Positions 33,001 through 36,000 of a DNA stretch of 64,000 nt are shown here, in pieces. Made by a program: the position numbers. Each line of letters starts with the position of its first letter. Within the stretch, counting starts at the first letter, position 1. This DNA is from Ophelia neglecta (lineage: Eukaryota), in assembly GCA_965285935.1 (NCBI GenBank), contig OZ260664.1, positions 86,552,001-86,616,000 of the forward strand, written 5' to 3'.

Positions 33001-36000
33001 TTTTTAAAGTAGTATTGTTTATGTCCTCTCTAGCTATGAGTGTTTCCCAATGCTTACCTACATATACTACTAATTACATCAAAACTGTAGACGTCGCCAA
33101 TGAATAGAATATTCTTGCTTGTAAAAATGTCATGATTTCAGAGGCCATATTGGTATTTGGGTCTTTTTCCGTATAACAATAATCAGATTTTGCCTCTTTT
33201 ATGTACTTATCATTACCGTGATATATCATAATAATTGATATGGATTTTGTTTTCAGTGGGTGCTATTACTTACCATACACATCTATGAAGATAGAATCAC
33301 GAACACCGTTCACTTGACAATCCCACTTTCCGCTGTACGTATCATTCCGGTATGCTTGTATGAGAAGGGTGCAGTTTCCCTGTGGATTTCCACATATCGG
33401 AGCTGAAGCACACTCAGCGGCCTTCACGACTTCATGAAGCTGATTTACCGTACATCCAGTAGCAATATTCCTATCATATTAAAACTCATTAAATATCTTA
33501 TAATACTATGAGGATAATTCAACATTTCAAAATATAGCAGACTTAATAGGTGAACATTATGGAAATAATAAATGTGCTGACCAATGGTTCGGTTGAAAGG
33601 TGCGACTATTTGAAAAACTTACGTGGCTAAAGGTGGCTTATACCACACCTTTGAGAAAGGCGTCGAATCAAAACAAGTCAGAAGGAACATGTCTCCCTCC
33701 AGTGGTGTGCTGTCGTTTGTGGTGACTGCCACCGATTCGATCACTGATGAAGAATAAATAGTAATACCTTAAATGCTTTTCATAACAAAAACATTAGTTC
33801 CGACTATTATGGTTGCTCCTAAACGTATATTACCTGGTATCGCGACCAAAATGAGTGCTATTTTAATCATAATGATAAGCATAGTTCCGTAAACGATAGT
33901 ATCCAATGACTCTCTTCTTCGCAGCTTTATGCTTTGTGGTTTAAAACAGAAGCAATTTGTGCAGTAGCGCTCAGGTAGTCGTGCGCGCCGCTTGTTGCAC
34001 TTTACTGAACCAGCATAAAACGAATAGTGCACACAGAAATATACCCTCGGCGAAACATGATGAAGTGAAGTCATATTAAAATTCCTCTTGATATGTATAT
34101 GATGAAACACGTGATAACTTGTTTGATATATCTTTTCCATTCAGTTGCAGGTAAGATATTGGCATTGTCTGATCACTTTTTTTCCATTTTAAATGCATTT
34201 TCGTACATACCATTCATTCGGAAGTGATTGCACCACATATAAGTTCACTTATATTTATTCAGCAAACAATTCCATCTTCGTATGGAGTACCGAGTATTAT
34301 GTTATGGTGGGAGACACAATCAGGCTATCCTGTTCCATAAAGTTTATTGCACAAACTGGTCAATCCCAGTGGAATGTAGACAAAGGAGTTGACGCCTGTT
34401 CTATGTGTTTGTTCGAACCCCCGTCGTATGTCAACTACATAGGATCTGAGTGTGCCTCAGACCAACGATACCGAGATGGGGGTTGTGATGGTAACGGGAC
34501 GTGGATCACAGGGACACTGGAAGTAGACATAGAAAATAAGGACATCAGGGAGTGGCTGTGTGTGGGAGCCGATAACTCTCCTAAAGAATCGCTAACACTC
34601 CTGAAGTACAGTAAGTATGCAAATAGGTATATCGGATTTGAAAGATTATAAGTAAATCAAATACTATCAACTGAACTGGACTGCACCTATTATATGTAAA
34701 ACTGGTTTTAGACAATTATGCCCATAGCTACCGACATCGCTTGGTATTCATCACGAATCTTTCCGTTTTGTTCGCTGCACGACTACAAAGGTTAAGTCAG
34801 GCTTGCTTGCTATTGAAGTTGGTGCAAGGGTTGGCCGAGGATGCAGGCAATTTAAGCCTTCCTAGAAGACTACCGTTGTTCATAATAACAGGACAATTTC
34901 CGTAAAGAAACCTGTTTTTATTCAGTTCATTGTTTGACATCTTAGACAAGATTCACTTAACAATTAAACATGGACGCCAAGTTTGTATGATGGAGCTGAG
35001 AGCGGGATTTTGTATTTACTTATTTCAAAAATAGCTATTTTCAAAAGGTTTGGGGTGGGAAGGAATAGTTATTTTTTTTTGTTAAGTTCGCAGTCTAAGC
35101 ATTCCTAAGGCCTCAAGCCCCACTTCAGTGTGAGTTTTCTGGATGAAACCCTGCATACATGTGCCGAAATATCTTTGCATCGCATTCTCTTCTTTTCTGT
35201 AAGCACAGTTAGTCCGGTCCATACTACCCAATGCAAATTGTGTGCCACAATTCGGCAGATGCTTTCGCGTTATGACGGTATGCAATCATGTCAATTCTAG
35301 ACATACCAAACGATTATACCAGTCCATTCGATTTTATGACACCCTGTCTTATTTGTACGTATAGACCGTGTATTTTTGGGCATCCATGCATGCGTCACAT
35401 TTCATCAATATAATATAATTAACAAGTTTTTGGCTGCATCAAGTGGGTATCTTAAGAAGCATCACACCAACTAGTCTCACTGCATTAGATGATAGCTGTG
35501 TTCCCAGGTTTTTGATATTGCTCGGCGATACACTTTACTACTTGTGAATGAAATATATTGTAAACTTGCGGAGGTTTGAGATTTATGTACAGACAAAGAA
35601 TAGCCTAAAAATTGCATTTTAAAATAATTGTCGACTTTTAAAAAAACCTTATTAATGCTTTCTAATGTAGTTCTGGGTTGTGTTGGAATAAAATAGCACA
35701 CCATATATGTAAGATTGGTAGAATCAGCATATATAACTAACTATATTAAACATGTTTCTTTAGATACAAATAAATCATAAGAATAAAAGTGGACCCAGGA
35801 TAGACCCCTCAGGTACACCCGAAGTACTATGACAATATACTGAAGTGATTCCCCGGTACTCAAAATATTGTTTGCGGTTACATAGATAGCATTTAAAATT
35901 ATTAGAAGCATCAGTGACTCGATAGTATTGAAGTTTCTCTGTCGATAAAGAGGGCTAATTGACTATTAAAGATAAAGGCTAATTAAAGGCTAATTTAGCC

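What the first reader, a model, noticed from the sequence alone, without database searches (positions are those of the whole stretch)
33274..34610. Both N-terminal V-like domains and the promoter fit in a 1.34-kb cassette flanked by long TE-rich introns
Seen: the signal-peptide and first-domain exons of both genes lie in 33274-34610; the next exons are 4.8 kb (B) and 6.15 kb (A) away across introns containing TE relics. Inference: the two putative specificity domains would almost never recombine apart, as expected for co-evolving lock-and-key alleles, and the cassette could be exchanged as a unit onto constant regions.
Basis: partly seen in the sequence, partly recalled or inferred. Interest (0 to 1): 0.72.

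Follow-up and report, generated by a model that had tools for sequence, protein, structure and literature searches.

The report
Head-to-head immunoglobulin-type receptor gene pair
Two neighbouring animal genes for immunoglobulin-type surface receptors point away from each other and keep their leader and first-domain exons within 1.3 kb, a layout known from self-recognition loci, but nothing here shows that the two proteins recognise each other or vary between individuals.

Summary
Gene A (+) has a leader exon (34093-34150) and a one-exon first domain (34263-34610). Gene B (-) has a leader exon (33882-33834) and a first domain in two exons (33744-33623, 33470-33274). The start codons lie 210 bp apart, and the next exons follow after 6151 bp (A) and 4795 bp (B).

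Gene A continues as about ten more Ig exons, fibronectin-III, a membrane anchor and a tail with ITIM- and ITSM-like tyrosine motifs. Gene B has at least a second Ig domain and a candidate anchor exon.

"V-like" rests only on the Cys/Trp/Cys pattern, V-type spacing and language-model look-alikes. Pfam, PDB sequence search and two AlphaFold runs gave nothing.

The two first domains show no detectable similarity to each other. A's has one relative among 1.84 billion representatives.

Transposon relics in the two introns are poorly supported: no Pfam hit in any of 12 reading frames, one reverse-transcriptase-like motif seen by eye, and two weak repeat pairs.

Lock-and-key co-evolution cannot be tested from one haplotype. 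The linkage argument is arithmetic and gives only a 5.6-7-fold difference in target size. This is most likely a lineage-specific, co-regulated IgSF receptor pair.

The parts
33883..34092 (.). 210-bp gap between the two start codons; presumed shared bidirectional promoter region
   Evidence: Sequence reading. CpG o/e is 1.21, a value reached by 10% of 200-bp windows. Promoter activity is inferred, not shown.
34093..34150 (+). Gene A leader (signal-peptide) exon. In-frame ATGs at 34093, 34099 and 34102. Ends in phase 1 before gtaag.
   Evidence: A hydrophobic leader is read from the ORF 34069-34227.
34263..34610 (+). Gene A first-domain exon (D1), phase 1-1, 115 whole codons. It has the Ig-like Cys23/Trp36/Cys99 pattern plus four extra cysteines.
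   Evidence: No Pfam family. One relative, P0006. ESM look-alikes. AlphaFold failed.
33834..33882 (-). Gene B leader exon, ATG at 33882-33880, phase 1 donor
33623..33744 (-). Gene B first-domain exon a (B-strand Cys and C-strand Trp). An alternative in-frame acceptor would start it at 33768. Ends in phase 2.
   Evidence: No Pfam family.
33274..33470 (-). Gene B first-domain exon b (four extra cysteines and an F-strand-like W-x-C). Phase 2 to phase 1.
   Evidence: No Pfam family. ESM look-alikes.
34611..40761 (+). Gene A intron 2, 6151 nt. Holds an RT-like motif at about 35690-35954 (-), repeat pairs 38017-38170/40533-40688 and 39606-39728/39878-39995, and a poly-G run at 40456-40469.
   Evidence: No Pfam family in 6 of 6 frames.
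28479..33273 (-). Gene B intron 3, 4795 nt. No recognisable transposon. Poly-G runs at 32069-32083 and 32968-32974.
   Evidence: No Pfam family in 6 of 6 frames.
40762..53204 (+). Gene A Ig exons, all phase 1-1: D2 40762-41076, D3 42319-42585, D4 42678-42998, D5 46361-46633, D6 48916-49239, D7 49400-49681, D8 49837-50166, D9 50261-50548, D10 50772-51134 (GC donor), and D11 plus fibronectin-III 52608-53204
53340..57844 (+). Gene A 3' part: membrane-proximal exon 53340-53702 (no Pfam family), transmembrane exon 54504-54605, and cytoplasmic exons about 57102-57220 and 57623-57844. The tail carries the motifs AIYENT, IIYAEL (ITIM pattern) and TIYATI (ITSM pattern).
   Evidence: Motif patterns as given in PMC12582321 section 13 (ITIM) and from recall (ITSM).
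28088..28478 (-). Gene B second Ig domain in two exons, 28478-28339 and 28250-28088
   Evidence: Pfam C2-set_2 E 0.0042 and Ig_3 E 0.0075, both below the curated cut-offs. BLASTP to A-D2 gives E 1e-4 over 26 residues.
19942..20046 (-). Candidate gene B transmembrane exon (phase 1-1, about 26 hydrophobic residues, strong acceptor). Assignment to B is inferred.

Best explanation
The interval holds the shared 5' end of two divergently oriented, lineage-specific immunoglobulin-superfamily genes for type I membrane receptors in an invertebrate animal genome. I do not take the contig for human.

Each gene starts with a leader exon and a fast-evolving N-terminal Ig-like domain next to a roughly 210-bp common upstream region. 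A long intron follows, then the more conventional Ig domains.

Gene A is a large receptor. It has D1, about ten Ig domains built from a repeated two-domain unit, fibronectin-III, one membrane span, and a tail with an ITIM-pattern and an ITSM-pattern tyrosine 26 residues apart. It most likely signals by recruiting SH2 phosphatases; this step is inferred. Gene B is a smaller IgSF protein with at least two Ig domains and probably one membrane span.

The likely consequence of the layout is co-regulation from one bidirectional promoter (inferred). The 'cassette' is the ordinary leader-plus-V exon arrangement of IgSF genes, seen twice back to back. It is not in itself a sign of co-evolving alleles.
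For: - Exon borders have consensus splice sites and consistent phases for both genes.
- Pfam gives Ig families at or above a curated cut-off for A's exons at 40725, 46351 and 52598, and fn3 at the last. Exon 42297 matches Ig_2 just below cut-off.
- A-D2 matches Robo, FcRL5, SYG-2 and neurofascin Ig domains in the PDB, down to E 5.7e-13.
- The membrane span and the tyrosine motifs are read from the ORFs.
- B-D2a matches C2-set_2, the same best Pfam family as A-D2, but below cut-off. It also resembles A-D2 at E 1e-4.
- D1 of A is a real, conserved coding sequence: its relative P0006 aligns at 31% identity over 62 residues, and 0 of 2000 shuffles reach that score.
- Head-to-head, co-expressed IgSF receptor pairs with N-terminal V-type domains are documented in Botryllus (PMC12582321, sections 7, 11, 15 read).
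Against: - No transcript evidence exists, so start sites, 5' UTRs and co-expression are not shown.
- The D1 fold is unverified. Pfam gave no hit for 3 of 3 D1 exon translations, and AlphaFold pLDDT was 37 and 33.
- Gene B is modelled only for five exons plus a candidate membrane exon 8 kb further on. It could be truncated or a pseudogene.
- A-D1 and B-D1 show no detectable homology, so a common origin of the pair is not shown.
- The CpG signal over the gap is weak.
Confidence: 0.6

Rival explanations
1. A and B are a polymorphic self/non-self (or gamete) recognition pair whose N-terminal domains bind each other in an allele-specific way. The 1.34-kb block keeps matching alleles together and can be moved as a unit onto constant regions, as in Dictyostelium tgrB1/tgrC1.
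For: - The genes are divergent, with 210 bp between start codons, and both putative binding domains lie within 1337 bp.
- Uniform phase-1 borders allow in-frame exchange.
- Both D1s are sequence orphans, as fast-evolving recognition domains would be.
Against: - No polymorphism or binding data of any kind are available.
- The linkage contrast is only 5.6-7-fold by distance.
- Orphan status is expected anyway, because even A's conserved Ig/fn3 exon finds nothing above 33% identity in the protein collection. This shows a poorly sampled lineage.
- No spare or alternative D1 copies that could feed exchange exist in the 64 kb.
- An ITIM/ITSM tail on an 11-Ig receptor fits an immune or adhesion receptor equally well.
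Confidence: 0.1
2. A receptor and co-receptor pair acting in cis, like Botryllus FF/FcoR. B supplies ligand recognition without signalling motifs. A, expressed from the same promoter, supplies the ITIM/ITSM tail, and the two form one signalling complex on the same cell.
For: [quoted passage not shown] FcoR carries ITIM or hemITAM motifs, and no FF gene carries tyrosine motifs (PMC12582321, sections 13-15 read).
- Here A carries ITIM- and ITSM-pattern tyrosines.
- Both genes begin with an orphan Ig-like domain.
Against: - No Sushi domain was found in any exon scanned.
- A is far larger than FcoR, which has 4 ectodomains.
- B's tail is unknown, so absence of motifs in B is not shown.
- B's candidate anchor is a single span, whereas FF proteins have three.
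- There is no sequence relationship to test, because I had no FF or FcoR sequences.
Confidence: 0.15
3. Coincidental neighbours. Two unrelated IgSF genes, or one gene and a decaying 5' fragment, happen to abut head to head. Short divergent gaps are common in animal genomes, and the layout has no functional meaning.
For: - There is no detectable similarity between the two D1s.
- B cannot be followed confidently beyond its second Ig domain.
- The promoter signal is weak.
Against: - All five modelled B exons are open, with good splice sites and matching phases.
- Both genes share the same order: leader, cysteine-rich orphan D1, long intron, C2-set_2-like D2.
Confidence: 0.15

Closest known systems
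Botryllus schlosseri Fester family / fester co-receptor (FF/FcoR) gene pairs (PMC12582321)
   Same: Two IgSF membrane-protein genes lie head to head. Each has an N-terminal Ig-like domain that sequence methods barely recognise, and one partner has ITIM-type tyrosine motifs.
   Different: FF and FcoR both contain a Sushi domain, and FF has three membrane spans. Here no Sushi domain was found, and gene A has about 11 Ig domains plus fibronectin-III. Polymorphism, pairwise copy-number variation and co-expression are shown there and are untested here. The paper's supplementary figures on gene structure could not be opened.
Dictyostelium tgrB1/tgrC1 allorecognition pair
   Same: Paired, diverging genes share one short promoter region and encode single-pass surface proteins with Ig-fold-like ectodomains.
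   Different: It is an amoebozoan system with compact genes. Its domains are IPT/TIG rather than Ig/fn3 (recalled). Extreme polymorphism and matched-allele binding are demonstrated there. None of this is tested here, and this window has long introns.
ITIM/ITSM inhibitory IgSF receptors (PD-1, Siglecs/CD22, PECAM-1; oyster NCAM1-like receptor with two ITIMs, PMC11841013, abstract seen)
   Same: A type I IgSF ectodomain, in the oyster case with fibronectin-III, and a tail with an I-x-Y-x-x-L motif followed about 26 residues later by a T-x-Y-x-x-I motif.
   Different: No sequence relationship beyond generic Ig domains was found. Phosphatase recruitment is inferred only. The comparison with PD-1, Siglec and PECAM motifs and their spacing is recalled, not tested.
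Leader-intron-V exon organisation of vertebrate V-type IgSF genes
   Same: The leader sits on its own small exon. A short phase-1 intron (112 nt in A) precedes the V-like exon, and a larger intron follows it.
   Different: There are no recombination signals or multiple V segments. B's domain is split by an extra 152-nt phase-2 intron. The comparison is from general knowledge, not from a call.

Membership tests
Immunoglobulin V-set domain (for A-D1 and B-D1) | Match to a curated Ig or V-set sequence profile | tested here: not met
   Pfam gave 0 families at E<=1 for 3 of 3 D1 exon translations. hhalign to A's own Ig exons gave probabilities of 1.7%, 0.5% and 0.1%. PDB phmmer gave nothing significant; the CD96 V domain scored E 0.56.
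Immunoglobulin V-set domain (for A-D1 and B-D1) | B-strand Cys, C-strand Trp about 10-13 residues later, F-strand D-x-x-x-[YW]-x-C, and Cys-Cys spacing of about 65-80 residues | tested here: met
   Read from the translations. In A these are Cys23, Trp36 and Cys99, a spacing of 76. In B they are Cys24 and Trp34 of exon a and Cys51 of exon b, about 69 residues apart when counted across the exon border without joining. The pattern definition is recalled.
Immunoglobulin V-set domain (for A-D1 and B-D1) | Two-sheet beta sandwich with C' and C'' strands | tested here: inconclusive
   AlphaFold2 of A-D1 gave mean pLDDT 37.4 alone and 33.2 with its one relative. These models were too poor for a fold search, so none was run. 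B-D1 was not folded because that would need the two exons joined.
Co-evolving head-to-head allorecognition pair (tgrB1/tgrC1 type) | Paired diverging genes with one short shared upstream region | tested here: met
   The start codons at 33882 (-) and 34093 (+) are 210 bp apart. Promoter sharing itself is inferred.
Co-evolving head-to-head allorecognition pair (tgrB1/tgrC1 type) | High allelic polymorphism concentrated in the binding domains, with matched alleles | not testable with these tools
   The window is a single haplotype, and no other copy of this locus could be fetched. The only relative is one unnamed 94-residue fragment.
Co-evolving head-to-head allorecognition pair (tgrB1/tgrC1 type) | Direct binding between the two gene products | not tested
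   The complex prediction was not run. It would need B's D1 joined from two exons, and single-sequence models were unusable.
Botryllus FF/FcoR pair | Sushi domain in both partners | tested here: not met
   No Sushi family appeared in any of the exon translations scanned. Only recognised exons were scanned.
Botryllus FF/FcoR pair | One partner with ITIM/hemITAM tyrosine motifs, the other without any | tested here: inconclusive
   A's last exon carries IIYAEL and TIYATI. B's cytoplasmic part was not found.
ITIM/ITSM inhibitory IgSF receptor | Type I membrane protein with an Ig ectodomain and a cytoplasmic (I/V/L)xYxx(I/V/L) motif | tested here: met
   Ig and fn3 Pfam matches. Membrane-span exon 54504-54605 and IIYAEL in exon 57623-57844. 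The motif definition is quoted in PMC12582321 section 13.
ITIM/ITSM inhibitory IgSF receptor | Phosphotyrosine-dependent recruitment of SHP/SHIP phosphatases | not testable with these tools
   This needs biochemistry.

The most novel reading that the evidence does not exclude
The block is the specificity module of a previously unknown self/non-self or gamete recognition system in a lophotrochozoan-like invertebrate. In this reading, two unrelated, cysteine-rich V-like domains are held together by a bidirectional promoter, evolve as matched alleles, and are shuffled as one unit onto an inhibitory (ITIM/ITSM) receptor and its partner.
Probability: 0.1. Interest if true: 0.8.

Novelty: new member of a known kind. 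Interest (0 to 1): 0.35.

Why it matters
Invertebrate self-recognition systems have arisen repeatedly from unrelated gene families. Two of the best understood, Dictyostelium tgrB1/C1 and Botryllus FF/FcoR, use head-to-head gene pairs. A further such pair in another animal lineage, with an inhibitory-type tail on one partner, would be a cheap candidate to screen for polymorphism. As it stands, the locus is a well-defined gene model of a lineage-specific IgSF receptor pair with an orphan N-terminal domain family. It is useful for annotation but is not evidence of a recognition system.

Tried and rejected
SEARCHES FOR RELATIVES OF A-D1.
- The word-indexed search among longer proteins scored none of 67 candidates at E<=0.01.
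- The full HMMER scan of 1.84 billion representatives gave 2 hits at E<=0.001. P0005 is a long repeat protein of bacterial appearance that matches only a 29-residue stretch, and I treat it as chance. P0006 is a real relative.
- The profile of A-D1 plus P0006 found only P0006 among 5 candidates.

ORGANISM.
- A's Ig/fn3 exon found only 4 distant proteins among 924 candidates, at 24-33% identity. One was a Lingula twitchin-like protein.
- ESM look-alikes of A-D1 are unnamed clusters whose few annotated members are mostly molluscan.
- These are leads only.

FOLD. Two AlphaFold runs were unusable, so no fold search was run.

HOMOLOGY OF THE TWO D1s. BLASTP, hhalign and the shuffle tests were all negative. 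A three-way MAFFT alignment lines up E-C...C...T...W-x-C. I give it no weight because the shuffles do not support it.

HIDDEN EXONS.
- The HMM scan contained one mis-framed training row (D10). This produced a spurious 38-residue hit at 50926-51039.
- One tblastn query (B-D2b) was mis-framed.
- Neither slip affects the D1 or intron results.

TRANSPOSONS.
- Pfam on 8 intron ORFs plus 2 others.
- Six-frame read-through with X at stops for both introns.
- tblastn with the window's own BEL/Pao proteins, nothing below E 1.8 outside the element.
- Rfam and tRNA scans.
- PDB search with the RT-like piece.
- All were negative.

NOT DONE.
- The spliced (joined) protein models of A and B were never built or searched.
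- Complex prediction ended the session not run.
- Supplementary files of PMC12582321 could not be opened.

OTHER. 10 further ORFs outside the two genes gave no meaningful Pfam family.
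Full report
WHAT THE WINDOW IS.
The 64 kb contain no N. They are 34-49% G+C and carry long introns and an intact BEL/Pao LTR retrotransposon. This is an animal genome of invertebrate type, and I do not take it for human. No tool gave an organism name. The only leads are ESM Atlas look-alike clusters whose few annotated members are mostly molluscan, and a distant Lingula hit for a conserved exon.

THE OBSERVATION.
- On the plus strand, gene A has a leader exon with in-frame ATGs at 34093, 34099 and 34102. It ends at 34150 in phase 1.
- A 112-nt intron follows, then a single first-domain exon, 34263-34610, also ending in phase 1.
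- On the minus strand, gene B starts at 33882. Its leader exon ends at 33834 in phase 1.
- B's first domain is split into 33744-33623 and 33470-33274 by a 152-nt phase-2 intron. An alternative in-frame acceptor would start the first piece at 33768.
- The start codons are 210 bp apart.
- A's next exon begins at 40762 and B's at 28478, giving introns of 6151 and 4795 nt.
- An HMM of A's downstream Ig exons, run over all 1586 ORFs of 25 residues or more, found no extra Ig exon in either intron (one training row was mis-framed).
- tblastn with the D1 exons found no second D1-like copy in the window.

THE TWO GENES.
- Gene A continues with nine further phase 1-1 Ig exons (D2-D10). The D10 donor is GC rather than GT.
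- Next come an exon with an eleventh Ig domain and a fibronectin-III domain, a membrane-proximal exon without a Pfam family, a transmembrane exon (54504-54605) and two cytoplasmic exons.
- From D3 onward the Ig exons alternate between two types, so the ectodomain grew by duplication of a two-domain unit.
- The tail carries AIYENT in one exon. The last exon carries IIYAEL and TIYATI, with the tyrosines 26 residues apart. These fit the ITIM pattern quoted in PMC12582321 (section 13) and the ITSM pattern as I recall it.
- Gene B has a second Ig domain in two exons (28478-28339, 28250-28088). Its Pfam support is weak: C2-set_2 E 0.0042 and Ig_3 E 0.0075, both below cut-off.
- C2-set_2 is also A-D2's best family. 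B-D2a resembles A-D2 at E 1e-4 over 26 residues.
- A candidate B membrane exon lies at 20046-19942. I could not find B's tail.

ARE THE FIRST DOMAINS V-LIKE?
- Sequence profiles say nothing. Pfam gave 0 families for 3 of 3 D1 exon translations.
- PDB sequence searches were insignificant.
- hhalign to A's own Ig exons gave probabilities of 1.7%, 0.5% and 0.1%.
- AlphaFold2 of A-D1 gave mean pLDDT 37.4 alone and 33.2 with its one relative, so no fold comparison was possible.
- In favour, both domains show the Ig Cys...Trp...Cys pattern. The Cys-Cys spacing is 76 residues in A and about 69 in B, which is V-type rather than C2-type. Each domain has four extra cysteines between the C and F strands (read).
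- ESM look-alikes include V-set clusters at 0.90-0.91 for A-D1 and 0.86-0.88 for B-D1b. An unnamed cluster of 109 residues and 102 members appears in both lists.
- I therefore call them Ig-like and probably V-type, but unproven.

ARE THE FIRST DOMAINS RELATED?
- No similarity between them is detectable. BLASTP found nothing.
- In a Smith-Waterman shuffle test, 1483 of 2000 shuffles reached the observed score for B-D1b and 215 of 2000 for B-D1a.
- A-D1 itself is a genuine conserved domain. It has one relative, the unnamed 94-residue fragment P0006: 31% identity over 62 residues, pairwise E 1e-12, and 0 of 2000 shuffles reaching the score.
- No other relative appeared among 1.84 billion representatives or in two word-indexed searches.
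- Even A's conserved Ig/fn3 exon finds nothing above 33% identity. Orphan status therefore reflects a poorly sampled lineage as much as fast evolution.

TRANSPOSON RELICS.
- Reading each intron through in all six frames, with X at stops, gave no Pfam family in 12 of 12 frames.
- Eight intron ORFs gave no transposon family.
- The window's own BEL/Pao proteins find nothing there.
- In A's intron I saw by eye a stretch at about 35690-35954 on the minus strand that reads like the conserved core of a non-LTR reverse transcriptase, followed in another frame by a degenerate YADD-like motif. Pfam and PDB searches did not confirm it, so it rests on my recall of the motif.
- A's intron also holds two repeat pairs of 71-73% identity.
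- B's intron shows only poly-G runs.

THE PROMOTER.
Only the 210-bp gap is seen. Its CpG o/e is 1.21, against a window mean of 0.78, and 10% of 200-bp windows reach that value. No start site can be placed without transcripts.

THE INTERPRETATION.
- The two D1s are closely linked, but the contrast is modest. Their centres are 927 bp apart, against 5224 bp and 6483 bp from each D1 to its D2. That is a 5.6-7-fold difference in target size under uniform recombination.
- Phase-1 borders throughout would keep any intronic exchange in frame. That is the rule in IgSF genes generally (recalled).
- A leader exon, a short intron, a V-type exon and then a long intron is the ordinary layout of such genes (recalled).
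- Nothing from a single haplotype can show polymorphism, congruent allele trees or mutual binding.
- I did not run the complex predictor.
- All searches in this report were made exon by exon.

COMPARISON WITH KNOWN SYSTEMS.
- Head-to-head pairs of surface-receptor genes used for self-recognition are known.
[quoted passage not shown] Both are IgSF members with N-terminal Ig-like domains, some of them V-type, that only structure prediction revealed. FcoR carries ITIM or hemITAM motifs (PMC12582321; abstract and sections 7, 11, 13-15 read, supplements closed).
- The present pair shares the layout and the ITIM-type tail on one partner.
- It lacks the Sushi domain, has a much larger ectodomain, and has none of the population evidence.
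- ITIM-bearing Ig/fn3 receptors are also known in molluscs (oyster NCAM1 homologue, PMC11841013, abstract seen in a search listing).

VERDICT.
- The anatomy is real and precisely described.
- The V-like and transposon labels are only partly borne out.
- The lock-and-key reading is an untested analogy.
- My best explanation, at confidence 0.6, is a co-regulated, lineage-specific IgSF receptor pair with an inhibitory-type large member.

Noticed in passing
window 4055-10860 (+): A seemingly intact BEL/Pao LTR retrotransposon. Its LTRs are 98-99% identical (4055-4243 and 10673-10860). It has a gag/protease ORF (5007-7136; DUF1759) and a pol ORF (7140-10298; Pao peptidase, RVT_1, integrase zinc domain, DUF5641), separated by one stop. 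It looks like a young insertion and lies downstream of gene B's modelled exons.
   Followed up: partly
window 42319-51134 (+): Gene A's Ig exons D3-D10 alternate between two types. One starts D-K-P/D-E-P/D-P-P. The other ends ...Q/T-C-K/E-Y across the donor. This points to growth by tandem duplication of a two-domain unit.
   Followed up: partly
window 51135-51136 (+): The donor of exon D10 appears to be GC (AAT|gcaagt) instead of GT. All other modelled donors are GT.
   Followed up: no
window, 24 runs (e.g. 2333-2351, 13152-13172, 32069-32083, 40456-40469, 48354-48373, 51354-51373): Long homopolymer G (or C) runs of up to 21 bases are scattered through introns and intergenic DNA. Only the two at 2098 and 2333 share flanks (97% over 34 nt, inverted). 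Their origin is unexplained.
   Followed up: partly
window about 35690-35954 (-): A stretch that reads like the core of a non-LTR retrotransposon reverse transcriptase. It is frameshifted and antisense to gene A. It was recognised by eye only; Pfam and PDB searches were negative.
   Followed up: partly
window 12154-12531 (-): An ORF that looks to me like the N-terminal part of a PIF/Harbinger-type transposase. Pfam gave no family, so this is recall only.
   Followed up: partly
window 59674-59814 and 61893-62034: An inverted repeat of about 140 nt at 81-82% identity, with arms 2.1 kb apart, downstream of gene A. It may be the ends of a DNA transposon.
   Followed up: no
window 34058-34069 (+): A mini-ORF (ATG ATG AAG TGA) lies 24 nt upstream of A's first in-frame ATG. 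It would be an upstream ORF if it is part of the 5' UTR.
   Followed up: no
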